Shown piece by piece: positions 980-20,730 of a stretch of DNA of 64,000 nucleotides; the first letter of the stretch is position 1; the number at the start of each line of letters is the position of its first letter. The stretch is from Pseudogymnoascus verrucosus (taxonomy: Eukaryota). The notes below the pieces were generated by a model. That model saw nothing but the letters and a program-made list of their open reading frames with translations, did not search any database and had not been told where the DNA came from. The stretch lies in assembly GCA_001662655.1 (NCBI GenBank), contig KV460207.1. One strand, written 5' to 3'. A program made the translations under genes and the position numbers.

Positions 980-3245
980 ATGACGGACGTTAAGCAGCAC
1001 TCGTTCAACCCTTCGCAGAAGTCTGGATTCGACGGCTCTGTAAAGAACATACAAAAGAAGACATCAGAGACTCAAGAGCAAGCACCTAGCGAAGTCGACG
1101 ATGTAGAGAGCCGTGCGGGCACAGAGTCTGTGGGAGGCGAGTCGCAGGCCATACAAGCAGGAAGCGTCGATAACGAAGGACATGTTATTGACGCCGATGG
1201 TCACATCATCGGGAACGTCACAGGGGAGAATGCATCACAGCTTGAGGGGTCTATCGTAGATCAACAGGGTGATGTGATAGATACCGAAGGAAATGTCATT
1301 GGAAGTGCGGAGCCACAGGAAGCCGGTGAAGCAGAAACCCCCGAGAAAGATCTTCCGGACGTATCAATCCTTGAGGGAAAGAAGGTAAACAAGGGAGGAA
1401 ACGTCGTTGACGACAGCGGCAAACTATATGGACGTATCGTCGACGGGGATATTTCTAAGTTGGTTGGAAAGAAGGTGGATTCCAGAGGAAAAATCTGGAA
1501 CGATTCAGGAAAAGTCATTGGAAGCGCGGAAGTGATACCCATCGATGAACGAGATGAGTCCTCTGGTGCACCCTTCGAAGATTTTCCCAATGCCGTCGTC
1601 AACAAGGACGGAACCGTCGCCTCGGATGGCCAGGTAGTTGGGAAGCTCGTTGACGGCGACGCTAAGAAACTCTCTGGCAAGAAGGTCGACAAGGATGGCG
1701 AGGTCATTGATAACGTCGGGAACGTTGTAGGAAAGGCTGAGCGATGGGAAGAAGAAGATGCCCCTGAGCCAGAAGCGGCCGATTTATCTTCTTTAGCTGG
1801 CAAGCGAGTGAATAAGCTAGGTAACGTGGTGGATGGCACAGGTGCCATCTATGGAAGACTCGTTGAAGGCGATCCCAAGAAGCTCGCAGGGAGGATGTGC
1901 GATAAGAACGGAGATGTTAGAGGCGAAGGTGGCGATGTTGTCGGCCGCGCTGAATTGGTTCCCGAGAGCGAGCGTGAAGGCATGAAGCAGGGACCATTTG
2001 CGGACTTCAATGGCGCAACCGTGAAAAAAGATGGCAAGGTAGAAGCTAGTGGCACAGTTGTTGGGCGTCTCATCGAAGGAGACGCAAAGAAGCTGTTTGG
2101 AAAGCCGGTGGATGCCGACGGTGACGTATTAGACTCCAATGGCAATCAGCTGGGGAAAGCTGAGAGATGGGAGGAACCCGAGAAAGAGAAGTCGAAGCAC
2201 GCAGCATCAGGCTTGAAGGTGAACCGCGAAGGGAACGTCGTGGGCGAAAATGGAGATACTATCGCCAAACTGACAGATGGTGATGTGAGCCGCTGTGCAG
2301 GTAAGGAGATTGATGACGATGGCGATGTCGTTGATGGAAAGAACCAACGCATTGGATCCGTCACACTCCTCGCAGATATTCCAGCCCCTGAGGAGCCCAA
2401 GGAATCACCAGAGGAAGCCGAGAAGCGCAAGCAGACGGAGCAAGACAAAAAGCTCGCCGCTCAGATGGCCACCTGTGTCCAGCAGTCACTGGACAAGATC
2501 CAGCCAATCCTCAAGATGATCACCGAGGTAAGCAAGCCGTTCCCTGCATACCAGTATTAAGCTAACAAAAGTAGGCTATTGAATTAGCCGAACGCCAGCC
2601 TAAGGAGGAACTTGATGAGCAGAAACTTGTCGACACTGTCAAGCCACTCCTCGAGCAAGGCGGCGAGATTTTGCAGGAAGCCAATGGTGTAATCCGTGGC
2701 CTTGATCCTGATGGAAGGATTCAGGCAAATGCCAAGCACAAGAGCGCCTCCCGCGAGGCAACACCAGAGGAGCACCGTCTTGCTGAGGTGTTGAAGGAGG
2801 TGAGTGTTATGAATATTTATATAATTTCTATAATGCTAACATTGAGATAGTTGACTGGCAGCGTGAGCCAGACGATTGAGGGGGCTAAGAAAAAGGTGGC
2901 GGGCATGCCCCACGCAAAGAAAGAGCTGAACCCACTCTGGGGTCTCCTTGCAGGTGCGTAAAATCTATCACATGTCTGAGTTCGGATGCTAACCTGTGTA
3001 CAGAGCCACTTGGACAAATCCTTGCTGCCGTTGGATTACTCCTGTCTGGCGTTCTTGGTCTAGTCGGCAAATTGGTATGTTTACTCCTGCAACATATGCG
3101 GAAGAACTACGCTAATATATTATAGCTTTCTGGATTAGGACTCGGTGGGCTGCTTGACAATCTTTTGGGCGGACTAGGGATTAAGGGCATCCTCGATGGT
3201 CTTGGCCTTGGGTCACTCACGAAGTCGTTGACGGGAAAGAAGTAG
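980..3245 (+). CDS. Repeat-rich hydrophilic protein (DUF3659/LEA-domain-like repeats, with a helical and Gly/Leu-rich C-terminus); 5 exons
   Basis: Long ORF with repeated 'G.VVD..G..vG.l.eGD' units. ATG at 980. GT-AG introns at 2528-2574 and 2800-2850, plus two more near 2955-3003 and 3075-3125. Spliced exons read AIELAERQPKEELDEQKLVDTVKPLL... and end at TAG 3243-3245. Confidence 0.8.
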
Positions 3246-4257
3246 ATGCTTCTTGTGTACTTCTTACCAAATTGCTAGTTTAATGTAGAATCTTACGAAT
3301 TGTAATTGTTTGCTACAACGAAACCTATTGATATTAATTGTGAACTGCTGTAATCTACTGCCGCTGGTTATTCGATTCAAATATATTGTGTTTGAAACTA
3401 CGTTAAATTACATAATCTTAGCCATTTCGCTAGGATTTAAAATCATTGCGGTAGGTAATGTATTTATTATATAATTAAATGCTATATGCTACGCTAAATT
3501 AGATAAGCTATAGTATAAAAAGGCAAGTTGTAAGAAAACTAAGGCGTTAAAATCGATCTTGAGCTCGCTCCTAGCAACATCATCATTATCCTTCTCATCA
3601 TCGCCCCTCTCTCCATCCCATCCCCTCTCCTCAACCTTCATCCCCCCTATATTCCCCTTGTATCCCTTTGTATCCCATCCCGCCCCCCCCGTCCCCCGTC
3701 TGCTCTCCACCACCCTCATCTCACGATCTACCGCTTCGCACCCCACCCCCAACCCCACCGAAATGCCCCCCCCCCTTCCCCCACCACCCACTCTCTAGGT
3801 CAAATACTCTCCCTCTACTGGATATTTCTCTAGCCCCCATCCTACCGAGATAGAGGCCTAGAGATAATATCCGCGGCTGTCATGCGCTCTGACCTCATCC
3901 CGAGGATAGACTTTCTCCCTCCGGTTCAAGTACTTGGTAACTAACTCGTCGGCAGACGCTAGATTTATGATTGCAAACCTAAGTAACTAGGAGCGCACCG
4001 GGAAACTTGAGTGGCTGTAGAGCCGAGACGTTCCAAAGTTATAAAGTTAGAAGTGAGAAATTGAGAGCACAAGTCTCCCAGCCAATATCTTTTGTCCGAT
4101 TTCGGACTTGTACATGTTTCGTAGGTCAGTCTGCTAGTCATTGAGATATTTAACCAACAACGTCTTCGTGGCAGTTGACCAGGAGCGTGTCGCTAGATCC
4201 GGGGTTGCCTTGTCGGCCTGTCGGGCCTCGCGGCTCCCGTCGTGACTATTCTCTACG

Positions 4258-5750
4258 ATGAGTCGGATGACAAGGACATTGCGAACTTGCGAAACCTGTG
4301 TTCACTGCGTACAGTGTGATGAGAATTTTGAGAGGGTTGGTTTTGTCATTAAAGCGCCTGCTCAGCCTAATCCTATCATCCTCGTCAAGACCAGAATGCA
4401 TGATAGCAATCTCATCGTATATGAACTACCATCTCCCAAAACTCTGCTGATAGCGGAATATCCTCCACAAGCAGCAACTTCTCTCTCCTCTCCTTAGGCG
4501 TTGCTGGAAAAACGTATGTTAAAATTTCATTCAACACATATCTGAGCTTTGGCGAGCCATAAGATAAAAACTCCATGTTCTTGAGGCCAGTCTGGATGTC
4601 CTCTGGGTCTCCCTCTCTTCTATCGAGGCCAATTACGTCGAAGGCGTTCAGTCGTGGCCTGCAAGACTAGCCTTGCGAAAGATCTGCTATAATCGCTCTA
4701 AGTGAGTAGAGATGTAGGAGTCTGAAAGATAATGACTGGTAGGTTGATCGAAATCGAGGGGTTCTGAAATCGTGAAACACAAAGTAGTAGATTAAGGACA
4801 TAAATCCGAAAGATAGTAACTGGTAGGCTGGTAGAAACTGAGGGGCTCTTGACCACATGGGGACTTTGCTGAAGTCCAGCCATCCCACAACAAGGGGGAA
4901 AAAATCATAAGGGACGAAATTCCAGGCAGCGATTTCGACCCTGCCGATGCCCCTGACGACGTATCTAAATATGATTCTGACGGGCCTTCTCTCTCTTGGG
5001 CGCAACTAGAGAATATGACCTGGTCATCCTCCGGTTGTTGGATGAAGACAAAGATGAATATCAGGACATGGTCGGAGGTATCCATGATGATATCATCCCT
5101 GACTCTGACGACAAGAGTATTGTAGATGCTGATGCGGACTCTAATTATGGATTAGACGCCATAGACGGCGAATTGGGCACCGTCGACAAGACATTCTCCG
5201 GTGTTCCGGTCCAGATACCTCACGTCGAAACCGATGTGACAGATTCTAGACCCGTGTCAGAGGTATACTGCAGGGGTTAGAGGATTTTGCCCGCAAAATC
5301 AGATATGATAAGGCACAGGAAAAGCCAACGTATCCGTTGAGCTTTAGCTCTGGTCTATCCTCCGTACTATATCGACAGAATAATTCATGGTAGTCTATAG
5401 GGCTGCCGTCCTCGAGAAAGTCCAATTGGTGCTCGGAAGGGAAACTCCGACGCCGGAAGCAGTTATAGCATTGGCTAGGTACTGGAGGCGCCATAAGAAC
5501 GGAGGCGTGTATGTAGATTTAGCATATACGAAATCAAGCAATGACCATGCATGCTATATTGGGTCTACTACTCGTGAATTCTCCAAGCGGATAAGGGGGC
5601 GTTTAAGAATCTTAAGTAAATATACTATACCATCCAAAACCACCGCCCTTATAGTTGGAGATGATGAATATGCTGTGTGTAGAAATGCTAGATACGATAA
5701 AGATTAAAGGTGAGAGTTAGCAATTATAAGAGTTGAGAACTTCGACAGGC
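4258..5750 (+). pseudogene. Decayed coding region containing a GIY-YIG-like nuclease motif
   Basis: Short same-strand ORF fragments (4258-4497, 4996-5280, 5387-5707) broken by stops and frameshifts. The last fragment contains GGVYVDL...CYIGSTTREFSKR, which fits the GIY...YIG...R signature. Confidence 0.45.
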
Positions 5751-5859
5751 CCTGTGCTGTCGTGCGCCCTGGGTAGTCGCTCTCCCTACTGTAGTTTGGA
5801 AACGTCACTGATTATGAACCCATTTTTTATTTGTAGCTATCTTGCTATTAATCGTCCGT

Positions 5860-6185
5860 GTTGGTCGCTCTCTACAACTATGGTTTGCAACGTTGCTCTG
5901 TCAAACTAGATTGTTAACAGGCTCTAATATGAGGACGGCGAGTCTAAGTAATCGAAGACCAGTGTTTTAGTTGTAGTAATTATAAACCTATAGCTTATTT
6001 ACAGCCACTATGCGATTTATCGCCCTTGTTAGTTGCTCTCCTTCATTGTCGTTTGCAACGTTACTCTACCGAACTAGATTGTCGATAGGTGCGAATATAA
6101 AAATTGCAACTCTAAGTGATTAAGGACTAATGTTTTAGTTATAGTGATTATAAACCCTTATTTTTCTTATGGCTACTGTGCCATT
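5860..6185. repeat. Degenerate ~168-bp tandem duplication
   Basis: 5860-6020 and 6028-6185 share the blocks gtttgcaacgtt(g/a)ctct, aactagattgt, tctaagt, tgttttagtt.tagt and attataaacc. A partial third copy lies near 5770. Confidence 0.75.
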
Positions 6186-6480
6186 GCGCATGTAGGGATA
6201 ACAATTCTGGTATTTGCGCTAAAGTGATTCATTCTAGCAGGACTTATAAATATTGTCTTGAAATCGTTTTAAAGCCTACGTCCATTTACTGTGCCATTGC
6301 GCATAATGAGCTATAAAACTCGAGCATTTGCGCTAAACAGGTCTTGATTTACTGTGCCATTGTGCATTATTAGCTATAAACTCGAGAATTTGCTCTAAAC
6401 TGGCTTTGATTTACTGTGTCATTGCCCATTATGACCTACAAATGTGACATATATATCATTTATACTCGAGATTTTTGCAC
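6175..6480. repeat. Array of ~60-bp degenerate repeats (actgtgccatTGCGCA..agctataaaac..tttgcgctaaa)
   Basis: Four to five copies, starting near 6175, 6287, 6350 and 6411. Confidence 0.75.
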
Positions 6481-7220
6481 TCTTTGATCTCGGCGTCGTC
6501 GAAGATACATGCAAATCCGATAATAGACGCTGAATTCTCAACTGGATCATCGACAGGCGCGAATATGAAGCCCCAAAGTCCCCCACACTACTTCCGGCCC
6601 CAAAGTCGCCTACAACCTATCCATATGTAGAGGATGCAGATGAGGATATGTCCAGCGTTCCTAATCTCGCAGTTGAAAGTAACAACGTCTGCGACTTTCA
6701 CATCCTCGCCATCCAGGAACAATAGTAAGAAGATAAACGATAGCGAGAAGAGCAACGACACCAAGAAGATCAATGGCAGCGAGAAGAGCAACTACAGCAA
6801 AAAGAACCAAGCAACAGCAAGAAAGAACCAAGGAGTACCGCTAGCAAGGAGTATCGATCCCAGCACCCAAGTCTTCAAAGCGCATAGCACAGTTCTGCAA
6901 CTTGAGGGCAGTACTGTTTACTAATAAAGTTGCTGTGCCAACGAGGATTCAGAGTGCGAAAACGCTTTGTGGGAAAGGCAAGTACACGACTACCAAAATC
7001 CGGCCGAAGATTGAGATGTCGTATCCCAGAGCGTCGTGGAGAAAGCGGGGATACCATCATTGACAGACAAGGTATTTCCGTCGTCCCACAAAGCAAGACT
7101 GGGAAAGTTTTACATGGCCAAGCCAAGGTAAGTACAGGACTACCAAAATCAAACCGTGGGTAAAGAGCTCCCGAAATTTGATATATCGATCACATTATGT
7201 GCCCAATGCCAAAGGGCAAC

Positions 7221-7240
7221 AAAAAAAAAATGACAAAAAA
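7221..7240 (-). terminator. RNA polymerase III oligo-T terminator of the 5S gene
   Basis: Plus-strand A6 and A10 runs sit immediately downstream of the 5S 3' end as read on the minus strand. Confidence 0.75.
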
Positions 7241-7302
7241 CATACAACAGTGGGTATTCGCTGGTGGCCACCCACCCAACTACTAATCCACCGATCTCAA
7301 GC
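7240..7302 (-). rRNA. 5S rRNA gene, 3' half (interrupted)
   Basis: Minus strand reads GCTTGAGATCGGTGGATTAGTAGTTGGGTGGGTGGCCACCAGCGAATACCCACTGTTGTATGT, a typical ascomycete 5S 3' half, followed by oligo-T tracts. Confidence 0.93.
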
Positions 7303-7976
7303 ATCCACTTGCTTTTTACTTCGGCCGGCCTAGTGGGTGAGCCCTTGCTGCCTTAAGGGGTGAAGCGAGGGTGAGCAGGGTGTGAGCGGGGTGAGGGGAC
7401 GCGATGATTTCGTGTCATTATCGCGTCAACGTCGTAATAGTACCGGAGTGTAGCTGTTTTAGTTCACGTACCTTGTTCAGCCTTGCGTTATCCCACCAAA
7501 GACCGTCACTAAACTGAGGGGCACAGTACACATCAGCCTCACTAGGCAGCATTCTTCAAGTACGTATGTGAAGTTGGGGTACAATACAGTGACTAGAGAT
7601 ATAATTTGCCTATGTGATTGGGGATCGCTGTGTTCTCAATAGTTATCTTATTTCGACAGAGGCCTAGAGCTTCTAGTCGAATTTAATAATGGAATAGCGC
7701 TATGCAACGCAGGTGAGGCGCCTGGCTGCAGCTGTTAGGACGTAGATGGCTGAAACAATTCGGAGCTCATATTTGGATTGCGCACTTAACTCACGTTCAA
7801 AGAGGTTTCTAATATCTGTTCCACTATCCTCTTGTAGACCACCTGCCACGCTGTCTCCCTTGCTCTTAATTAAGCATTTTTCTCAACTATGGTTCGTCTG
7901 TTAGACCAAAAACAAGTAACTCGAGTGGGAAATCGACAGAATTAAGCAGTTGACCTATACAATTGAGCCCTCTACT

Positions 7977-9629
7977 TCAAACCTGTTCATGATCTAACAC
8001 AGAGTCCTCATCAACAGTAAACTTCTCCCCATTTTCTGACATGCGGTTGACAGACAGGCGATGGTTTGCCAGGACATCGCCATTTCCAGCGGCCTTGTAC
8101 GTAGCCTCCATTTTGGTATAAAGCGGGCTGCTACTCTCGAACATAGCCTCGATTGATTCGAGGGAACGACCTGCAGTCTCGGGATAGAGGAAATAGACGA
8201 TGGGGCACCAGAGCAGATTGAGGCCGGCGAAGAGGAAGTAGGTGCGCGACTCGAGGACCCCGAACATGATAGGGTTTACGAGAACGGTCATACCGACGCC
8301 GATGGCCCATCCCGTGATTCCAAAGCCGTTGCCTTGGGCGCGCATCTCGGAGGGGAAGATCTCAGTAGGGATGAGGAATGCGACGGTGCCCCAAGTCGAG
8401 GCATAGATCAAGTTAAAGAGGAAGAGCATGGTGACAGCTGCCGGGGCGATTTGTGCGGCTTTGCTAGGATCCGCACGTGAGCCTTCGTACAAAGCGGCTG
8501 CGACTAGGTTCACGAGGAAGAGGCCGAAGGCGCCGCCGATTAGACACGTACGCCGACCAAGACGGTCTACGATCTGTGCGGATATTATGGTGCCGACTAT
8601 ACCGATGGTGTTGAGGCCTCCGGCAAGACCGCTCTGCTTGACAGAACTGTATCCGGCTTGCTTCAAGAGAACGGGACTGTACGCTGTCACCGCGGTAATT
8701 CCGGTCCATGAAGCCATGATTTGCAGAAAAAGACATAGCCATGCACGGCGACCCAGGTGAGCACCGTTAGTAGCGCGGCCGAGGAGGACCTTTGCGAATT
8801 GGACAGGGGAGCTAGGCTTGGATTCTTCGGCAACAGCGCAAATTTCAGCGAATTCCCTCTCGACATCTGGGCCCTTGTTGCCACGGATATGCTCCAAGAC
8901 CTCCTTAGCCTCATCAAGACGGCCGACAGAGGCCAGGAAGCGAGGAGAGTCGGGGAGAAACTTGATGCCAACCATCAGAGTTATAGCAGGGAGACACTGG
9001 AAAGCTAGGAGAAATCTCCATCTGACCTCTGAATAGCCACCGTCGACGAATGAGAGGCCAAAGTCAAGCCAGTAGGCTACGGAGATACCCAGGTAGTTTG
9101 CGATGAAGACGTATCCAAGGAATCCACCACGGTGGCCCGCAGATGATACTTCGGCGATGTAGACGGGAACGATGGCAGTCAATGCTCCGGTGCCCAGGCC
9201 CGTAACGACACGGGCAACGACAATGAAGTCGGAGCTCTGTGTGGCGGCCTGGAGGGCACCTCCGACCAGGGCGAATACTGCTGCGATGAGGAGACCGTTA
9301 ATACGACCAATGCGATCAGCGATCCAGCCGCCGACGAATGCTCCGACGATGGCGCCTAAGTAGTAGATAGAGACGATGCCGCCTTGGTGAGTGGTGTCTG
9401 TGACTGTCCCATCTGGAAGTCCAATGCCGACCTCAGCTACGTAGTTGGGCGAGGCATTCACGCCTCCCATAACACCTGTAAGGTTGGTTGTTAGTGACCA
9501 GGACATATATTTCTGGTCGAGAGACTCACCTTGGTCATATCCCTCGAAAAAAATGGCAATGAGAGAGAAAGTCTGAATGAATATGGAGAGCTGTTTGGGC
9601 GACAGCTTCTTCCAGAAATGTTGAAACAT
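7977..9629 (-). CDS. MFS sugar porter (sugar/inositol transporter family)
   Basis: Motifs FFEGYDQG, ADRIGRI, RVVTGLGTG, PDSPRFL, VDRLGRR and YPETAGRSLE, with about 12 hydrophobic segments. One in-frame 54-nt intron at 9476-9529. Confidence 0.93.
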   Translation of the reverse strand: MFQHFWKKLSPKQLSIFIQTFSLIAIFFEGYDQGESLDQKYMSWSLTTNLTGVMGGVNASPNYVAEVGIGLPDGTVTDTTHQGGIVSIYYLGAIVGAFVGGWIADRIGRINGLLIAAVFALVGGALQAATQSSDFIVVARVVTGLGTGALTAIVPVYIAEVSSAGHRGGFLGYVFIANYLGISVAYWLDFGLSFVDGGYSEVRWRFLLAFQCLPAITLMVGIKFLPDSPRFLASVGRLDEAKEVLEHIRGNKGPDVEREFAEICAVAEESKPSSPVQFAKVLLGRATNGAHLGRRAWLCLFLQIMASWTGITAVTAYSPVLLKQAGYSSVKQSGLAGGLNTIGIVGTIISAQIVDRLGRRTCLIGGAFGLFLVNLVAAALYEGSRADPSKAAQIAPAAVTMLFLFNLIYASTWGTVAFLIPTEIFPSEMRAQGNGFGITGWAIGVGMTVLVNPIMFGVLESRTYFLFAGLNLLWCPIVYFLYPETAGRSLESIEAMFESSSPLYTKMEATYKAAGNGDVLANHRLSVNRMSENGEKFTVDEDSVLDHEQV

Positions 9630-9870
9630 AGCGAGGTAGGGGGCAGTATCGATTGTCTAGAACCAAAAGGATGTAATTGATGTGTTGTACAGTACGTACA
9701 GAGTCGGCCTTTAAAAGGAAAACGAAGAGCGAACGGGGTGTCCTTTAAATACTCCATGAGATGACAGTTTACATACTCTCACACACGGCAATAAGGGAGT
9801 AACATGAAAGCTGAACTTGTGATCCTCACTTTTTGTGAGTCGGTCATCCTCTCTCCACACTTTTACTTGG

Positions 9871-9959
9871 AGATCCGGAGAACTGGAGAATTGTGGAGAT
9901 GGGTGGGTGTGGCAGGGTGTGGCAAATACATCTCCACAATTCTCCAGTTCTCCGGATCT
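9871..9959. promoter_or_regulatory. Perfect 31-bp inverted repeat in the divergent promoter; each arm holds three SYGGRG (CreA/Cre1-type) motifs
   Basis: agatccggagaactggagaattgtggagatg (9871-9901) and its exact reverse complement (9929-9959), with a 27-nt spacer. The arms contain CCGGAG, CTGGAG and GTGGAG. The repeat is certain; the regulatory role is inferred. Confidence 0.55.
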
Positions 9960-10371
9960 GCACGAGGATAGCCATTGGCTGTGCAGACTCCCGTGTTATC
10001 CCATAAGCGTTTACACGTTTAACCGTCTAAACAGTTTAAACATTTAACCGTTTAAGCATTCAAGCGGGTTACAATTTCGCCCATATGCAATACTCCGAAG
10101 TCCTTGGCAAAGCCAACCTCGATGATTCAAGGACAAGTTGCGAACAGCCGTAAGCATTAAGACCACTTTAAAGCGTAGAATGGGAACCCACTGACTATCT
10201 TTTTCACATTATTCATGATTTCGGTTATGTACTGCCTTTCTTCCCCCTTCTTTTATCTCGACATCAAATCAAGTATATATTGACTTAAGCACCATCTTTC
10301 TAAGTCTCTCTAGTTTTTGTATATACCACAATTTATTCATAGCGGGGACTCCATAGAGCGGTAATATAGCA

Positions 10372-11790
10372 ATGCCCTCTTCAACTACAAACGGAGCCAG
10401 CAACGGCTACGGAAATGGCAGTACAAATGGCATCAATGTGCCGTCCGATGCGGCGTTCGACTTGACAGTCCTCGGCTTGAACAGCGGGACTTCCATGGTT
10501 AGTTTCCACACTGTTATATCACCGCCGGTACATGCTGACAGCAGATTTTAGGATGGCATCGACTGCGCACTCTGCCGATTTCGACAGGAGACGCCCAGCT
10601 CTCCAATGCAATTCGAGCTGTTGAAATACAGCGAAATCCCTCTCGAGCCGGTAATCAAGAAACGAGTCATGAATATGATCCTTCACAATAAAACCACACC
10701 AGAAGAGCTATCGGAAGTCAATGTGCTACTGGGAGAGACATTTGCGTCTGCAGTCAAGGAATTCACAAAAGAACATGGGCTTCAACTGACAGATATTGAT
10801 GTTGTTGGTTCCCACGGACAGACTATTTGGTTGCTATCAATGCCAGAGGAAGGACAAGTCAAGTCTGCTCTCACAATGGCCGAGGGATCATTTATCGCAG
10901 CACGTACCGGTATTACAACAGTCACGGACTTCAGAGTCTCAGATCAGGCGGCTGGACGCCAAGGCGCACCTCTCATCGCCTTTTTCGACGCCCTGGTACT
11001 TCATCACCCCACTAAACTACGAGCTTGCCAGAACATCGGCGGCATCGCTAATGTGTGCTTTATTCCGCCGGATCACCAAGGTGGCGTAGACGCTTGTTAT
11101 GACTTTGATACGGGTCCTGGGAACGTTTTCATTGATGCCGTAGTACGTCACTATACAAATGGTGAGCAGGAATATGACAGAGATGGAAAGATGGGCAAGG
11201 CTGGGCAAGTGGATCAGGAACTTGTGGACGACTTTATGAAGCACAAATACTTTGGTCTGGAGCCACCGAAAACCACAGGGCGGGAAGTTTTTCGAGACAC
11301 ACTCGCCTTCGAATTTATCAAGAAGGCAGAGCAGAAGGGGCTGTCACCGAACGACGTGGTGGCGTCGATTACTAGAGTTACTGCACAAGCTATCGTTGAT
11401 CACTACCAACGTTATGCGCCATCGCAAAACATCGACGAGATTTTCATGTGCGGCGGCGGAGCATACAACCCAAATATCGCAGCGTTCATCCAAAAAAATT
11501 ATCCGAATACTAAGATCATGATGTTAGATGCCGCTGGTATTCCAGGGAGTGCAAAGGAAGCAATCACCTTTGCATGGCAGGCTATGGAAGCTGTCGTCGG
11601 ACGCTCCATCCCAGTTCCGACCAGAGTCGAGACAAGACAGGAGTATGTTTTAGGGAAGGTGTCTCCCGGCAAGAATTATAGAGAGGTCATGAGGAAGGGA
11701 ATACTCTTTGGTGGTAAGGCGGATCATCTCAGTCCTGTAAAGGAGCTGGTCAACTACGTTGAGGGGAAGGTTTTCGATAACAAGTGGTGA
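10372..11790 (+). CDS. lgk: Levoglucosan kinase (AnmK/LGK family anhydrosugar kinase)
   Basis: ATG at 10372 and intron at 10498-10551. The spliced protein has [79 protein letters not shown] and CGGGAYN. These closely match the Lipomyces starkeyi levoglucosan kinase sequence as I recall it. Confidence 0.88.
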
Positions 11791-12081
11791 CGAGATGTTG
11801 GGTGACTGTTTCGTATTCTGTGTAATTTAGTGATTACTTTGCGTAGGTAATTTCTTCGCTTGTGAAATACATACATATACGTTAATATAATGACATCTAT
11901 CTCGTCTCTCGGGCCATGCCTCCAAAGCACACGTCGCATGGATTGCATCCGATATGCATCCGATATGCGGGGTAAACCGCACTAGAAGCGGGACGGAAAA
12001 TAGTTCCGGAACAAAGGTTACAGTTAGCACAGCTAGAAATGAACTCTTCGATTGCGCAATCTTCGCGGCTACGACCTCTTA

Positions 12082-14464
12082 ATGCAGCAAGCTTCTGCCT
12101 CTGAGCCTATAGTCCTAGATTCAATGAATTCAATGAACACCGCTAATACAGAGAGATTAAATGCAAGGCCATCAAAATCTCCCTTTGATGTGGCTCGGCC
12201 GAGGAAGCTAAGACGGGTTACAAGAGCATGCGATTTTTGCCACAGACGGAGCACCCGATGTAAACAGAGTCAAGACGATAGCCGATGTCAAAACTGTCTA
12301 GATTTTGATATTGCGTGTACCTTTGAGAGACCGGCGAGGAAGCGAGGAAGTAAGCGGCAAGGACAGGCGCAAGTGGACGAAGATGGGTCTCCATCCGGAG
12401 AACATGCAAATCTACTCCTACAGATGATGAACAGTCAGGTTCATGATGATGAAGCGTACTCCCACGACGAAAGGAATAAGAGAACTGCGGAGGCGTTGAT
12501 TACATTTCCATTAGCGACAGAGTACAGAGACATGGTGTTAGACAACCCTGATATAATTCAAGATCTCGTCAGTGTCTACTTCGAGGTGGTTTATCCAATG
12601 TAGGTCATGGCTTCATCTGTCTGTACTCTATTATGCTTTACCTTGAAACTATGAAGCTGAGGCCTAGAAAGTTAACTTTCTCAGATTTCCTTTCTTTCAT
12701 CGTCCAACTTTTCTCCAAAAGATTACCATGAGAAGGTACCTTTCTGATCGAGGACTGTTCGCTGTTGTTATGGCTATTTGTGCTCTTGCATCTGCTCGGG
12801 CTCGAGATGGAGCACTTCTTCCAGGTCAATGGGAGCCGTCCCATTTCCGCCATCCCTCTTCAGAGTCCTTCTACTCAGCTGCGCGAGATGTCACTCCGCA
12901 TCTCAATCTCAGTGCGATGGAAGGCATTAATTGGATGCGGATGTGTGCCCTGCTATCACTTCTCGGGATTCAAAATGGAAATATTAATGTTATGCATCAG
13001 TATCTTGGTCTTTATCATACTTTGGCAGCTATAGATGGCTTGCACGACGAGAAAAACTGGCCAAAAGATATTAGCATTATTGAGATTGAGGAGAGAAGAA
13101 GACTGGTAAATGACATCTTACTTTCCTGTTAAAAATTGCTAATGGTCCTATAAGTTTTGGTCAATGTACACATTAGAGGTCTATTCTTCCCTTGTCTGGG
13201 TTGGAATTACCCGCTGCCGACAATCGCAATGTCGGGTGTTTTATCCTAGTGAAGTGGATGACGAACGCTTTTCTGACGAGGATTTTTCAAACTTATTACC
13301 ACAAAGATCTCCGCATCAAGGAGTTGAAGTAAGGCCAGGGCCGGCCATTGACACCTCCTCTTGGCTTCATGGTTGGAACTTCACGACAGATCTTTACGTA
13401 GTCCTTGAACATGCCATGGACGGCTTTCATCGCCGCCGACCACGAACAATAGCACATTTCTCGCCCAATAATATGTTCAATAGGGTCGCGCCATCGCAAT
13501 CTACGGTTTTGGATAAAGTCATGTGGATGCACCAGCAATTACCAGACAGATTCAAGGAAATACAGTCTGTGACATCTGACACAGGAGAAGATAGGCTGAG
13601 CTTCCAGGCGGCGAATATCGCTGCAACACTGCAAGTAAGTCATCCACATCAACAAGAAATAGCATGATACTTACGTTTATAAAGCTCGTTAGAATGGTGT
13701 TGTTTACAGCAGAAGAAGCAACTGTAGACCAAAAGTGTGCCATTGCCCGCGAACTGCTTGATGGATTCGCCCAAGTGCCAGTGTTCTTCCTAAGAGCAAT
13801 TTCGTCACCATTAGTATGTTTGATTCTAAAACTTCAGGCGTATCGCTAACAGTTGTAAGCTTTATCATTTAGCAGGTATCGGCTCCATCTTGGGTTCCGT
13901 CATGGAAGGCCCACTTTCAAAATCTTCCTATTTGCAGGCTAGGACCGTATTGTAAGCATCTTCCATCTCAATCAAGGCTAAACATGGCTCATTGTATACC
14001 TCATTAGACTTTCGATGGCCGACCTCCTGGCCAGCCTCGAGATAGGCATGACGCGAACCTCTGGCGCAACGCAGCGTCTCCGGTCACAAGTAACCCGGAT
14101 CGACGAGTATATGGCAGCACAGCAGCAACAAAATTTCGCACAATCCCCATCAGCACTCCCGTCATGTGTTCCGAGCATGCCGCATTCAAATCTACGTGAA
14201 CATGTCGATATGTTTCAAGAGGAGCAACAACAATCTCGCAGAGGAGTTCAGCAAGTAGGATACGAATTTCCTTCAAATTCCCAAGGCACAGGACATTTGG
14301 GGAATAGGCAGGACTACGTGCAGATTCAAATGCCGACGGAGACATATAATTTCAAGGGCATGCCTAGTGGAATCGATGGTCTAGATGAGACTGGTCAGCA
14401 GTTACAGTTTCAACTGCCGCCAGGGTTATTGGATGATTGGCCGTGGCTTTTTGATATGGCGTAA
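12082..14464 (+). CDS. Zn(II)2Cys6 fungal transcription factor with a fungal-specific middle domain (about 6 exons)
   Basis: RACDFCHRRSTRCKQSQDDSRCQNCLDFDIACTF zinc cluster, followed by YFEVVYP|..FFHRPTF and EERRRL|FWSMYTLEVY. GT-AG introns start near 12600, 13106, 13634, 13813 and 13952. Acidic C-terminal tail LDDWPWLFDMA. Confidence 0.9.
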
Positions 14465-15039
14465 GGATGTAAGTATGTAAGAGTAGTGTAGGTCACCTGC
14501 GATCTATCATATAGAGTTTGTTTATTTACGCATGGAGCAGGTATGAAAGGGGGCTTAGGTATTGACCGTGATGGTATAATCTATCATATATTGTTCTATT
14601 AGTTTTGATAGCCTTGCCATAACCGCCTTGCACAGCAGACACGCGCGTTACCGGGATTTTTCTTCTGCTCTCAGTCTGTTATTGTTATTCCTTATCACGG
14701 ATGAACCCGCTGACCCTGATAATCCTCAACACTATGATTCTCTAGCTGTTCTACCAGACAGGAAAGTGAAGAATCGACATTTTCCGAAGTCAGGACGTAC
14801 TTTTGGCAAAGCTTGATTATCGATTAGGCGGAGCTACAGAGATATGGAGAATCTGGAGAGCCTAGGTATTAGACAATTTCACGTTGAATTAATATCAAAG
14901 AGTTGCAGCAAGTGCTCCTTCATCGTAACACACGGTACATCTTCAGCGTGTATGCTCTTCTAAGACCTACTATCTTGCTGCTGGAAGGCTGCATTACAGC
15001 CCCACCAGTCAAGCAAGTTTTGAATATTTCTTCTCGTGT

Positions 15040-15370
15040 TCAGCTTGTTTGAACACGAATATCCTCTAGACAGACCAATAGTGCCCTTCTCTCAGCCCAG
15101 TCCACCAAAGCGTATCCTGCCATGTTCAGTAGCTGGACCGCCGTTGCCCAACTGATGGCATGGCGATTGTCGATGCTATTTGCAACAACTCGAGTTGCGT
15201 AAATCCGTGCAATTTCCCCTTGCCCGTTCGAACCTGCTAGCTCTTTCTTGGCAGCTGCTCTCTGGCAGAGAGAGGATGAGAAGGAAATGAGCGAGATTGA
15301 ACATTTGCATCGCTGCGCGGACAGTTTCATTGATGTAGAGACTGATAAGAAAAGGGTTCCCGTCATTCTC
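15040..15370 (-). pseudogene. Fragment resembling the C-terminal part of a fungal transcription-factor domain
   Basis: ARIYATRVVANS...WATAVQLLNMAGYALVDWAERRALLVCLEDIRVQT, with no recognisable 5' part. The similarity is from memory only. Confidence 0.35.
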
Positions 15371-15496
15371 TAGGCTTGCATAGGTAACTAAAGGCTGACA
15401 CTCTAATGGTTGATGTTGTTCGTCCGCTTACAGATCTTGCCAGCCTGTAAATCTTTCTTGAGAGAATGTAATCTCTTTGCGGACTTAAAGGAAGGA

Positions 15497-15972
15497 CTAT
15501 ATGTTAATTAGAGCTGCAATAAGAGAGGGTACAATGCATACACTAGCAGCATTACTAACGACATTCTTGTCTATCTTAGACTTTATAATGTGGTTTTAAT
15601 AACCTGAAAATCTGAACTAGATATTGACCACACTGTCAACTGTTAGAAGTTCGCTAATTTGACCATGTTGTGATGAAGCATAGTATTTAACAAAGTCTTA
15701 GTATAGGTTGCTATCATGCTATAGCAGCGCCTTCTCTAGACACTTCACAGCAAGAAACCTAATATCTCCATTAGTAGCCTGTACACAGTGTTAAGTCTCA
15801 CGTACCCTTAAAATATAATTGCTACTTCCACGTGCTTGTTTTTAGTAGCGTTAGTGAGAGTGTGCTGTTCAATATAGGTTTTCACGTTCTGTTAATTAGG
15901 TGTGAGCTCTGCAGAAAATATCCTTGCTTCTTTGCCATATTAATATGATCCTGTATATAGAGTACCTTCCAT
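15497..15972 (-). pseudogene. Truncated, RIP-mutated Starship captain (DUF3435 tyrosine recombinase)-like N-terminal remnant
   Basis: TATAAA near 16065 and ATG at 15972. Exons 15972-15806 and 15758-15542 are joined by a GT-AG intron (15805-15759), and a second donor GTATGC lies at 15541. The translation ...Y*DFVKYYASSQHGQISELLTVDSVVNI*FRFSGY*NHIIKSKID... fits the captain pattern F..Y.....G.I...PT..SV...W..F once TAG/TAA are read as mutated TGG. Confidence 0.6.
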
Positions 15973-16310
15973 CCTATTATAGCAGGAAGTAGGTCCTTGA
16001 AAAGGAGATGAGAATGTTGTAGATAGCAGACTGCGAAAAGTGAAGGTGGTGGGGGGTCTGCCTTTATACTACTTTCAAGCCTCACCCACGCTCACCTAGC
16101 CATGGCCATCTAAAGTCGCGGTGCATCGCGTTCATCGCGTCCATCGCTTCTCAATACGAGATCCACACCTTGCGTTGTTGATGTGGTCGCCGTCACGTAG
16201 CTGAGGGAGATAACCGGATTATCGTAAAAGCATCAAAAACTTGAGGCGGCGACGCTCAGATTTGACACTATGCCTATTGGCACGATTGAGAGTAAAAAGC
16301 AAGTAGATTA

Positions 16311-16371
16311 CAAGCTTGTGTATGGCAGAGCGGACGGGATGCCCAATTCTCTTGAGTCTATGGTCGTATGT
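16311..16371 (-). rRNA. 5S rRNA gene, 5' half (interrupted)
   Basis: Minus strand reads ACATACGACCATAGACTCAAGAGAATTGGGCATCCCGTCCGCTCTGCCATACACAAGCTTG. Joined to 7297-7240 it gives a 119-nt 5S with helix I and helix II pairing. Confidence 0.93.
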
Positions 16372-17072
16372 GATAACTTCTCTCTTGCTAGGGTATAAGT
16401 ACTGTTAGGCGCTGAGGTGTATGACGATTTCGACAGAGGCCCCCGGCCGAAGGTTTGGATGTTGTATCCCAGAGCACCGTGGAGGAATCGGCAATACCAG
16501 AATTGACAGATGATGAGTTGATTCGATTTCATAAGGCTAGTCTTGGGAAATACTATCTAGCTGAGCCAGGAAAATTCGAAGCTGAATGGGAGCTCGCGAT
16601 TTCAGCGTGCAAGGGGAGAAGCCCCGTGTCACCGATTTTATTTCTCACCACCGCTCTCCTATCTCGTCGCCGCTCCATTTCTCGTTACCCGCTGCTTTTC
16701 TCACCCTCTACTCCCTTTTCTCACCACCCACCCCATTTCTCACCGTCAACCCCACTGTCTCGCTTCCACCCCCCCCATTTCTTGCTACCCCCTTCTCCGT
16801 TGTAGTCATTGTCATTGACTTCCCGGAAGAAGTCAATGACAATGACTGGTCGTGGAGTCCTATAGCAGCACTGAAACAATTCTCATCGTTGCCGTTGGAA
16901 AGCATCACTGCCCCAGGTATGAAGATATAGATCTCGAGCCATCATCGCCTGCCACCTTCAATCACAATCACAAGCACGGCATGTCACATAGCAAATCAAA
17001 AAATTGAACGTAAACTTCTAATTCATTCAACTAACAACATAAATCTAGTTCCTCATCTCCACACACACCTCT

Positions 17073-18643: not shown

Positions 18644-19779
18644 GGTTGCTCTGGTTTGTTGCTGTGAAGCGGATATATGAGAGTAGGTTATAACTTCTTA
18701 TACTTGTATGAAGTCCAATGAATGAAAGACTTATTCAGATATGAGAGAAGAGACGAATAAACGGTGAAAGAGATGATTATTCTAGGTCAAACAGAGATGA
18801 ACGAGGGGAAAAAGAGGAAGAGAACGGTGAACGACGCAACTGTCTATATATATGGGAAGTATGGCGGAACCCGACTGGTACGTAATTGAGGTACCCTCGT
18901 TCTAGTATGGGGGGGGAGGGAGACCTGGGTCTCAGGGCGGGGTACCTCAGTGTTCAACCAATCAGAGCCGTCAATTTGCAAGCAACCGTCCGTAACCCTC
19001 TCGGACTTTGGCCAATGTAACCAAGAATTAATGACCTAAGGCCACAAGGCCACCACTCCTCCCCCGTTCAAACACACCTCTTACAGCTGTAAGAGTATCA
19101 TGATTGGTTGGTTTATTAACTTCCTCGGTCCTTGGCTGTTATAGTATCACAGCTGCATCCAGTAACCAGACCTGTCTCATAGTGCGAGTCGTGCTCACTC
19201 AACAGAATATTCCCGTGCAGTAGTACTATATTATATCCCTTGTGCCGAAGTTATACCAGCTATACCAGCTACCAGTAACTAAATTAATAGGAGTACGTAA
19301 CTTGGGGTAGTATTAGTATCCCTATACCGGTATGAGGAATGGACTCTTACTCTGTCTTCCTTCATTCTAACTCGGACACTTTCAGTCGGTCCTGTTCTAG
19401 CCTCTACTTCTTACCAAAGCAAGTTATATTACCTGTTGAGGAAAGAGACCCCGCACTCACCTTATTCCCGCCGCCCGGATGACGCCAGTCTCCGCCTTTA
19501 TCAAGCAATCCAGCGCCCGTGCACGAACGGGGTCCCGCCTACCTATCGTGGGAGTACTCCTATCGTGGTATGTAGTTCCGAGTCTAGGTTATACCACAAC
19601 ACTAAAAATGTGAGTGGGCTTCGGACCGGTGCTCTAGAACGCATGAGAGCTTTATAATCGTTGTGCGTTTGATGTATAATGTGATATGTAACAAATAGAA
19701 GAAGCTGTGGCGAGAATTACGCTGCGCTGAGGAATCCGGGCTTTGTTCCTCTGTACTAGTATGAGGGTTCTTAAAAGAA

Positions 19780-20730
19780 AATTGCGCATACGTCGGGTTT
19801 TATAGCCCGTTTTGCGCAATATACGATGTTTTTCGTGTTGAAGTCTAACCAACAGTCCCTGAGCCGGAACCAACCTAAGGATGGATATATGGGCTCTGTC
19901 TGTCCTCTATGCTAGCTAGTACGGACATGGTTTTGCGCAGTAATATAGTAATATGGGGCTATCAACGAATATATACATACATACATAGATATTGAATCCG
20001 TTCTGAATAAATTCGTTATACTTTCTTCGTGTTGAAGTCTAACCAACAGTCCCTGCCATAATCGATAACCAAGCTGCAATAAGGAATGGATATATATAGG
20101 CTCTGTCCCTCCATACTAGTATGAGGAAAAACGGGATTTTTTAAAAATTACGCAATTTTAAAGTTTTGTAGCTTGTTTTGCGCAAAACAAAAGAAAATGA
20201 GGCTATATTCACAAATACATCCATCATCCATCACTAATACAGTTTCAAAACGTCCAACCTTCGTTCTAAATTATAGAATTTGGCGCAGATTCGGGATTTT
20301 CTAACTCATTTTGCGCAAAACCTACAATAAAGATTTTAACCTTCGTTCTAGCTTGAAGAGGATTTGGCGCAGAATCCAAGTTTTATAGCTCGTTTTGCAC
20401 AATTCTACGATGTTGATCGTGTGCAGTTTTTGCGCAGCTTCCAGTTTTTATACCCCATTCTGCGCAGGATGCCAACAGTCACGGTTGACAGTAACGCTCG
20501 GTGGTAGTAACGTCCGCTGGCAGTAAAGCTAGTTCAATTTTGGCGCAGCTTCCGGTTTTTATAATCCATCTTGCGCATATTGCTAACAGTAACGCTGGCG
20601 GGCAGTGACGCTGGCAGAAACGCTTACTCGGCATTAGCGCAGACTCCGTATTTATAGTCCATCATTCTATGGATATTGCTAGTGCTACTAGTAACGCCAG
20701 CATTGGGCGCAGATTCTCACTTTTATAGGC
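19780..20730. repeat. Dispersed array of ~40-bp degenerate units (tttGGCGCAg..ttttatag...ttTTGCGCA), plus a duplicated segment
   Basis: Units near 19781, 20148, 20279, 20362, 20427, 20538, 20633 and 20702. The segment tcgtgttgaagtctaaccaacagtccctg occurs at both ~19833 and ~20027. Confidence 0.75.

What the first reader, a model, noticed from the sequence alone, without database searches (positions are those of the whole stretch)
15497..16070. Hidden captain-like recombinase remnant at the element end
This remnant is not visible in the ORF track. On the minus strand, ~340 bp inside the right end and reading inward, there is a TATAAA, an ATG (15972) and two exons that keep one frame across a canonical intron. 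The translation DFVKYYASSQHGQISELLTVDSVVNI*FRFSGY*NHIIKSKID resembles the N-terminal region of DUF3435 captains. Established: captains are the first gene at a Starship's 5' end. The catalytic C-terminal part is absent, so the element is probably non-autonomous and would need a captain supplied in trans.
Basis: partly seen in the sequence, partly recalled or inferred. Interest (0 to 1): 0.75.

Follow-up and report, generated by a model that had tools for sequence, protein, structure and literature searches.

The report
Broken captain of a stranded mini-Starship
This is the broken first quarter of the recombinase gene that once moved a giant fungal transposon, left at the end of a 9-kb remnant that splits a 5S rRNA gene and still carries an intact set of genes for using the burnt-cellulose sugar levoglucosan; a mostly ordinary dead element whose interior is oddly flipped relative to its relatives.

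Summary
Confirmed, with corrections. 15977-15497 (-) is exon 1 to intron 2 of a Starship captain: residues 1-130 of DUF3435 proteins from Pseudogymnoascus (tblastn E 2.5e-16; profile E 1.2e-16). Two relatives are listed in starfish family 06 (Enterprise). The remnant ends before the PF11917 domain, so Pfam misses it, and the catalytic part is gone. It sits at the 5' end of a 9,008-bp element in a 5S gene, with a 5-bp direct repeat and imperfect terminal repeats. The cargo is a sugar transporter, the genome's only levoglucosan kinase and a Zn2Cys6 regulator. All three full-length sister captains found carry stops, and the same deletion junction occurs in four other organisms' runs: probably an immobile derelict, not a trans-mobilised element. 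Unexpected: of 57 classified split-5S junctions in this genome, 5 (4 loci, including this one) have the interior flipped at a shared 5-base block about 50 bp inside fixed outer ends. The scan reported a similar decayed 5S mini-Starship in another genome before.

The parts
7303..16310 (-). Whole element, 9,008 bp between 5-bp direct repeats; captain end at 16310
   Evidence: contigs of intact 5S genes skip 9,013 bases with 5 ambiguous letters in 4 of 4 runs
16311..16371 (-). 5' 61 nt of a 5S rRNA gene, ending in the palindrome CAAGCTTG; last 5 nt are one direct-repeat copy
   Evidence: 98.5% to an intact 5S on C57; coordinates
16259..16310 (-). Outer terminal segment 'A', the type that abuts the 5S 5' half; begins with the 18-bp core of the terminal inverted repeat
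   Evidence: A found at 37 of 38 non-intact 5'-half junctions examined; repeat alignment
16245..16258 (-). Start of the captain-end core (TGAGC block); inferred inversion point
   Evidence: homology to the C52, C25, C13 and C36 copies and to a contig in run X6 begins here
16063..16068 (-). TATA-like box of the captain promoter
   Evidence: aligned with the same motif in C52; function inferred
15806..15977 (-).
15759..15805 (-). Intron 1, 47 nt, GT..AG with a CTAAT branch-like motif
   Evidence: same position in C52
15542..15758 (-). Captain exon 2 (residues about 58-130), 4 in-frame stops
   Evidence: 52% to P0004, 48% to P0143; stops
15497..15541 (-). Intron 2, 45 nt; deletion breakpoint at or just after its acceptor
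   Evidence: an 88%-identical sister contig in run X6 aligns down to 15498 and runs on 1,631 unlike letters
14465..15496 (.). 1-kb unique spacer with no captain homology; probably flank captured with the cargo (inference)
   Evidence: single copy; no Pfam hit in 6 frames of 14902-15497; no blastn or tblastx hit to fetched loci; no Atlas lead
12043..14464 (+). Cargo: Zn2Cys6 transcription factor, several exons (start not fixed)
   Evidence: PF00172, PF04082
10372..11790 (+). Cargo: levoglucosan kinase (AnmK family), open frame, only copy found in the genome; start read by eye
   Evidence: PDB 4yh5 E 6e-214; PF03702; 1 match in the genome
7977..9629 (-). Cargo: MFS sugar transporter, divergent from the kinase
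   Evidence: PF00083 E 3e-91
7303..7352 (+). Far terminal repeat: outer segment 'B' (7303-7337) and start of the far-end core (TGAGC at 7338)
7240..7302 (-). Direct-repeat copy (7302-7298) and 3' 58 nt of the same 5S gene, followed by a T run

Best explanation
The stretch is a pseudogene: the promoter, two exons and two introns of the captain tyrosine recombinase of a 5S-rDNA-targeting Starship, probably of the Enterprise lineage, in a Pseudogymnoascus-like fungus. Shown: homology, gene structure, position as first inward-facing gene, direct and terminal repeats, split 5S gene, intact cargo, loss of everything from exon 3 on. Inferred history: (1) a captain-bearing element integrated at the AAGCTT site after nt 61 of a dispersed 5S gene, by recombination of a circular intermediate as shown for Hephaestus; (2) its interior was inverted by a crossover in the TGAGC block of the imperfect terminal repeats, at this locus or in a progenitor; (3) an internal deletion removed the catalytic domain, leaving the captain's first 130 codons fused to a transporter/levoglucosan-kinase/regulator cluster; (4) the stub decayed (lost start, frameshift, stops, mild RIP-like TpA excess) while the single-copy cargo stayed open. 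The order of 2 and 3 is unknown. The stub makes no useful protein; the element is most likely immobile and inherited vertically, and its effect on the host is probably the sugar-use cluster.
For: tblastn of 4 database relatives against the whole window: P0004 E 2.5e-16 and P0005 E 1.6e-8 at this place, the other two no hit here; P0005 carries PF11917 at E 6e-41. 68% and 66% nucleotide identity over about 760 bp to C52 and C25, which continue into full-length captains beside split 5S genes. Relatives OBT76035 and KFZ13483 are listed as fam06, the family of the Enterprise captain, in Table S4 of PMC11162782; that paper names Enterprise among 5S-targeting families. Motifs that I read by eye as the catalytic R, K, HxxR and Y all lie downstream of the retained part. 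Full-length sisters C52, C27 and C25 have stops in 5, 5 and 6 of 6 exons tested. Contigs of 4 of 4 laid runs (four organism labels, four studies) cross the deletion junction with 0.6-1.5% differences, similar to the flanks. TpA/ApT is 1.30 in the stub and 0.62-0.83 in cargo and catalase. Kinase, transporter and regulator occur together in 5 of 23 metagenome loci, with no captain hit in any. Derelict Starships with a pseudogenised captain and retained cluster are described in PMC11623301.
Against: No Pfam hit in the remnant itself. The top-ranked hit of the unbiased search with exon 2 was an unrelated 4,132-aa repeat protein (E 4e-16 summed over 13 stretches, 27% identity); 3 of 15 hits are such repeats, the other 12 look captain-like and 8 of them align to P0143 at 45-56%. 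The RIP signal is weak: substrate index 1.03, no C>T excess against C52, and one of four stops stands where a relative has Lys. No orthologous empty site was seen, and contigs break at the 5S halves, so the same locus is not proven; 2 of 4 runs lack the left flank. Both ends are intact, so immobility is not shown. The assembly has 151 contigs and the searches score only the best candidates, so an intact captain may be missed. Family 06 is assigned by proxy, not by the starfish profiles.
Confidence: 0.8

Rival explanations
1. One reading: a non-autonomous mini-Starship that moved, or can still move, after losing its captain, using a captain supplied in trans.
For: Both ends are intact. Trans complementation of Hephaestus is shown (10.1101/2022.08.04.502770). 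The genome holds several other short 5S-inserted elements of 3.4-13 kb with different open cargo and different amounts of captain end left. Two distant DUF3435 genes (C61, C46) look free of stops in exons. Runs X5 and X6 hold the element but not the left flank, which could mean another locus.
Against: Single copy of the cargo and spacer; all three full-length same-family captains carry stops; the two stop-free genes are only about 30% identical to P0143 and no 5S half or end motif was found beside them; divergence of element and flanks is alike.
Confidence: 0.13
2. The two ends are not one element: the captain stub and the far end come from two insertions in different 5S genes, joined by a rearrangement that trapped a host cluster. 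This would also explain the flipped layout.
For: The layout is the reverse of 52 of 57 classified junctions; the far-end core's best match is an element of another end subtype; the kinase is the host's only copy.
Confidence: 0.05
3. The stub is kept because it makes a short DNA-binding fragment that blocks captains of the family.
For: The retained part matches the position of the core-binding domain and keeps its TATA box; the break falls at an intron acceptor.
Against: Start codon lost, frameshift, 7 stops in either reading.
Confidence: 0.02

Closest known systems
Derelict Starships (Gluck-Thaler et al., 10.1101/2021.12.13.472469; Urquhart et al., PMC11623301)
   Same: Degraded or missing captain, cargo cluster retained, presumed immobile; stage 4 of the life cycle in PMC11623301.
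   Different: Very small (9 kb); both ends and the direct repeat still readable; captain cut at an intron rather than only point-mutated; levoglucosan-kinase cargo (0 papers for 'Starship' + 'levoglucosan').
Enterprise-family (fam06) Starships (PMC11162782)
   Same: Relatives of this captain are listed as fam06; Aspergillus members target 5S rDNA and Enterprise itself a palindrome; here the target is a palindrome inside 5S.
   Different: Direct repeat of 5 bp against 6-16 bp given for 5S-targeting elements; whether the AAGCTT site is one of the five mapped 5S sites could not be seen (Fig. 5C and Table S13 not available).
Arwing-family two-way insertion and the PEGASUS inversion (PMC11162782; 10.1101/2022.08.04.502770)
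   Same: Two orientations at one target; an inversion inside an integrated Starship.
   Different: Here the outer 50 bp keep a fixed orientation to the 5S gene and only the interior is reversed, at the same 5-base block in 4 loci. I saw only a legend line for the PEGASUS case.
Levoglucosan kinase of PDB 4yh5
   Same: E 6e-214 over all 412 residues of the main exon; far closer than bacterial AnmK (E 4e-45).
   Different: Activity not tested; anhydro-MurNAc or another anhydrosugar as substrate is not excluded.

Membership tests
Functional Starship captain (DUF3435 tyrosine recombinase) | PF11917/DUF3435 domain in the gene | tested here: not met
   No hit in the remnant; present in relatives and sister copies
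Functional Starship captain (DUF3435 tyrosine recombinase) | Catalytic residues of the R-K-H-R-Y set | tested here: not met
   Candidate motifs, read by eye in the alignment, lie downstream of residue 130; pentad as in 10.1101/2022.08.04.502770
Functional Starship captain (DUF3435 tyrosine recombinase) | Open reading frame | tested here: not met
   Start lost, +2 frameshift, 7 stops
Derelict Starship (deletion derivative) | Captain-derived sequence as first, inward-facing gene at the 5' end | tested here: met
   333 bp from the end
Derelict Starship (deletion derivative) | Short direct repeat at both boundaries | tested here: met
   5 bp
Derelict Starship (deletion derivative) | Imperfect terminal inverted repeats | tested here: met
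   17 of 18 at the tip; alignment of the first 83-86 bp reached by 1 of 2000 shuffles
Derelict Starship (deletion derivative) | Cargo genes | tested here: met
Derelict Starship (deletion derivative) | Empty orthologous site in a relative | tested here: inconclusive
   41 near-complete 5S matches elsewhere in the genome (40 of 171 candidates scored) and intact 5S contigs in 4 of 4 runs, none tied to these flanks
Derelict Starship (deletion derivative) | Immobility | not testable with these tools
   Indirect only:
Enterprise family (fam06) | Captain falls in the fam06 clade | tested here: inconclusive
   By proxy: 2 of 3 accessions looked up are listed, both fam06; exon 2 is 48% identical to one; starfish profiles not available
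Enterprise family (fam06) | 5S rDNA or palindromic target | tested here: met
   family tendency from PMC11162782

The most novel reading that the evidence does not exclude
This Starship lineage has a second, inner recombination site about 50 bp inside each end, at which its own captain repeatedly inverts the whole interior while the outer ends stay fixed on the 5S gene: an invertible Starship with two states, the captain reading with or against the host 5S gene. It would also run a swarm of captain-less 3-13 kb mini-Starships that carry different metabolic and defence genes into 5S copies. Support: all 5 flipped junctions switch at the same block, all fall in one end subtype (5 of 16 against 0 of 41; Fisher p 0.004 counting this element once, kin not independent), and flipped ends are not each other's closest relatives in short, weakly supported comparisons. 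Host recombination between the imperfect repeats, or one old inversion, explains it as well.
Probability: 0.2. Interest if true: 0.72.

Novelty: new member of a known kind. Interest (0 to 1): 0.42.

Why it matters
As a captain stub it is ordinary: derelict Starships are a described stage. It matters modestly in three ways. It shows a blind spot, since Pfam, Rfam and captain-first pipelines miss an element whose captain is cut before DUF3435 and whose 5S target is split in half. It links a conserved levoglucosan-kinase cluster, the host's only copy, to Starship delivery. And the dozens of junctions in one genome give a natural series of end variants, including the flipped interior, that makes the open question of how captains recognise ends and choose orientation in 5S genes directly testable.

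Tried and rejected
Rfam over 1-24000 found no 5S: the halves are too short. PF11917 and all Pfam on the remnant: nothing. AlphaFold model of relative P0143: mean pLDDT 42.6, too poor for a fold search, which I did not run; 'core-binding domain' therefore rests on position and on PMC11162782 Table S5, not on a model. The 109-aa frame at 15040-15369: no Pfam, no Atlas lead above 0.81. Idea that the element sits inside a separate small A+B insert in 5S: no such empty insert among the junctions examined, and A and B proved to be imperfect inverted copies of each other (0 of 2000 shuffles). Idea that B restores a copy of the 5S 5' half: not significant (p 0.74); A and B resemble the 5S 3' half only weakly (p 0.02-0.03, four such tests). 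No RNA holder listed, so expression is untested. Substitution spectrum against C52 and C25 did not show directional RIP. A full-length sister carrying the same cargo: none in 23 metagenome loci. Left flank absent in runs X5 and X6: no conclusion drawn. Literature searches gave no title or read passage on Pseudogymnoascus Starships, levoglucosan cargo or fixed-end interior inversion; the library lacks most subscription papers.

Full report
Observation. The frame from that ATG crosses the intron but has 7 stops in 128 codons, the first at codon 11. Pfam sees nothing in the remnant, and none of the 19 PF11917 matches in the genome is on this contig.

What it is. A DNA search of the own genome showed 16258-15498 to be 68% and 66% identical to stretches on C52 and C25 that continue into PF11917 matches. 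Reading C52 gives a full multi-exon captain with scattered stops. Its third exon retrieved 4 proteins among 22 candidates, all named Pseudogymnoascus; P0005 has PF11917 from residue 135 (E 6e-41). Against the whole window P0004 and P0005 hit this place (E 2.5e-16 and 1.6e-8); P0006 and P0007 did not. A profile of 11 database captains gives E 1.2e-16 for exon 2 and 4.5e-4 for the second half of exon 1, against 0.76 at best on the reversed window. An unbiased search with exon 2 gave 15 hits: 3 long repeat proteins, one ranked first by summing 13 weak stretches, and 12 short captain-like proteins, two at 77-79% identity; 8 of the 12 were aligned and match P0143 at 45-56%. So the stretch is codons 1-130 of a captain. 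The homologous start at 15977 reads ATA, exon 1 is 2 nt longer than in C52, and homology ends at the acceptor of a second intron at 15497, six positions before exon 3 of the reference. Two of three relatives looked up are in Table S4 of PMC11162782, both as fam06, which holds the Enterprise captain.

The element. A 5S rRNA gene on the minus strand is split after nt 61: 16371-16311 and 7297-7240, 119 nt together; Rfam missed both halves. Five bases of the palindrome CAAGCTTG are repeated at the two boundaries, and intact 5S contigs skip 9,013 bases in all 4 runs laid. The ends share 17 of 18 bases and align over about 75 bp (1 of 2000 shuffles). Inside lie a sugar transporter, an AnmK-family kinase and a Zn2Cys6 regulator with open frames. 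The kinase matches solved levoglucosan kinase at E 6e-214 and is the only copy found in the genome. Among 23 metagenome loci with a related kinase, 11 have the transporter beside it, 5 (two apparently identical) also the regulator, and none a captain hit. The best named relatives are Helotiales at 87-88%; none of the 120 listed of 632 is named Pseudogymnoascus, which suits acquired cargo but does not prove it.

Mobile or dead. Three full-length captains of the family were found (C52, C27, C25), with stops in 5, 5 and 6 of 6 exons; the other matches are fragments. Two distant DUF3435 genes on C61 and C46 look stop-free in their exons but are about 30% identical and have no 5S half or end motif in the stretches scanned. 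I laid 4 of the 24 listed runs, leaving out the probable source X1. In all four a contig crosses the 15497 junction, with 36 differences in 6,367 bases (X2), 24 in 1,603 (X4), 91 in 8,350 (X5) and 97 in 8,626 (X6), close to the divergence of the flanks. The deletion is therefore older than the split of these organisms. Contigs break at the 5S halves and two runs lack the left flank, so one shared locus is likely for X2 and X4 but not proven. Run X6 also holds a sister 88% alike that aligns exactly from 16258 to 15498 and runs on 1,631 letters beyond, marking both breakpoints. TpA/ApT is raised in the stub (1.30 against 0.62-0.83) but the substrate index is not lowered (1.03), so RIP is only suggested. 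Trans complementation works for Hephaestus and movement goes through a circle, so the ends might respond to a suitable captain; none is evident here.

The flipped interior. In the loci I fetched (a lower bound) there are 38 non-intact junctions at 5S 5' halves and 32 at 3' halves. The outer 50 bp depend on the half they abut: segment A at 37 of 38 5'-half junctions. Inner cores start with a shared TGAGC block. Of 70 junctions 13 could not be classified and were dropped; of the 57 left, 52 have the captain end at the 3' half or the far end at the 5' half, and 5 the reverse: both ends of this element, C33:316210, C25:11491 and C6:534753. All 5 switch at that block and belong to one subtype of outermost sequence (5 of 16 against 0 of 41, by a score cut-off that I chose). 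A 150-bp tree does not group the two flipped captain ends alone (support 0.83-0.88) and the three flipped far ends are not mutual best matches: weak hints of recurrence. A and B are imperfect inverted copies, so host recombination is a sufficient cause. Known parallels are two-way insertion by Arwing elements and an inversion in PEGASUS; neither passage describes fixed outer ends.

Context. Pairing by proximity 16 hand-picked 5' halves with 13 3' halves gave 12 pairings of 3.4-33 kb, three competing for one end. Of 26 loci compared with the C52 captain end, most keep only 97-683 bases; this one keeps 855. Several carry open genes (MFS, short-chain dehydrogenase, HeLo with NACHT-ankyrin, GH18 with LysM; 10 of 14 frames had a Pfam hit).

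Sources seen. PMC11162782: passages, section 23, supplement searches and parts 1 and 212; Tables S11-S15 and Fig. 5C were not available and bear on whether this 5S site is already mapped. 10.1101/2021.12.13.472469, 10.1101/2022.08.04.502770, PMC11623301, 10.1101/2024.06.28.601215: passages only; bioRxiv supplements are closed. 10.64898/2026.09.21.753150: parts 1-2 of 4. That levoglucosan comes from burnt cellulose rests on abstracts; RIP index thresholds and the 5S internal promoter layout are recalled. The genus is inferred from named homologues.

Verdict. A real captain remnant in a real, probably immobile 9-kb Starship derivative: a new member of a known kind, interest 0.42, with the fixed-end inversion as the lead worth following.

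Noticed in passing
G000 C1:564703-568135, C15:251884-256762, C21:454564-458854, C5:163448-169402, C63:148765-161783 (L198-L203): Other short captain-less elements between split 5S halves, each with different open cargo (MFS; dehydrogenase with DUF3425; HeLo plus NACHT-ankyrin; GH18 plus LysM).
   Followed up: partly
G000 C6:549856 (L193) and C6:534665 (L192); also table 5c: The same outer segment A also occurs just behind the terminator of a 5S 3' end, so a related subtype seems to use a second target downstream of the gene.
   Followed up: no
G000 C53:121686 (L118): Here the 5S sequence runs 19 nt past the usual site and replaces the outermost end segment, suggesting that segment is positionally equivalent to the 5S sequence.
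   Followed up: no
All junctions: The outermost 18-20 bp come in at least four subtypes that appear at both kinds of end, a natural series of end variants on one target.
   Followed up: partly
G000 C61:58600-60300 (L037) and C46:252000-254000 (L038): Two distant DUF3435 genes that look free of stops in exons; boundaries and family not determined.
   Followed up: partly
window 7000-7067 and 16443-16510: A 68-bp direct repeat (82%) lies outside the element on both sides of the split 5S gene; unexplained.
   Followed up: no
window 9868-9962: A 34-bp inverted repeat (97%) in the divergent promoter between transporter and kinase; possibly regulator sites.
   Followed up: no
window 15223: All 4 laid runs lack one base here, so the frames in the spacer differ from the window; strain change or assembly error.
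   Followed up: no
window 2850-7240: Left flank with gene-like fragments and tandem repeats (5811-6442); absent from 2 of 4 runs and without match in the loci searched; may be another insertion.
   Followed up: partly
window 19776-20727: Dispersed 29-44 bp repeats with a TGCGCA core between catalase and the next gene, similar in core to those at 6171-6442.
   Followed up: no
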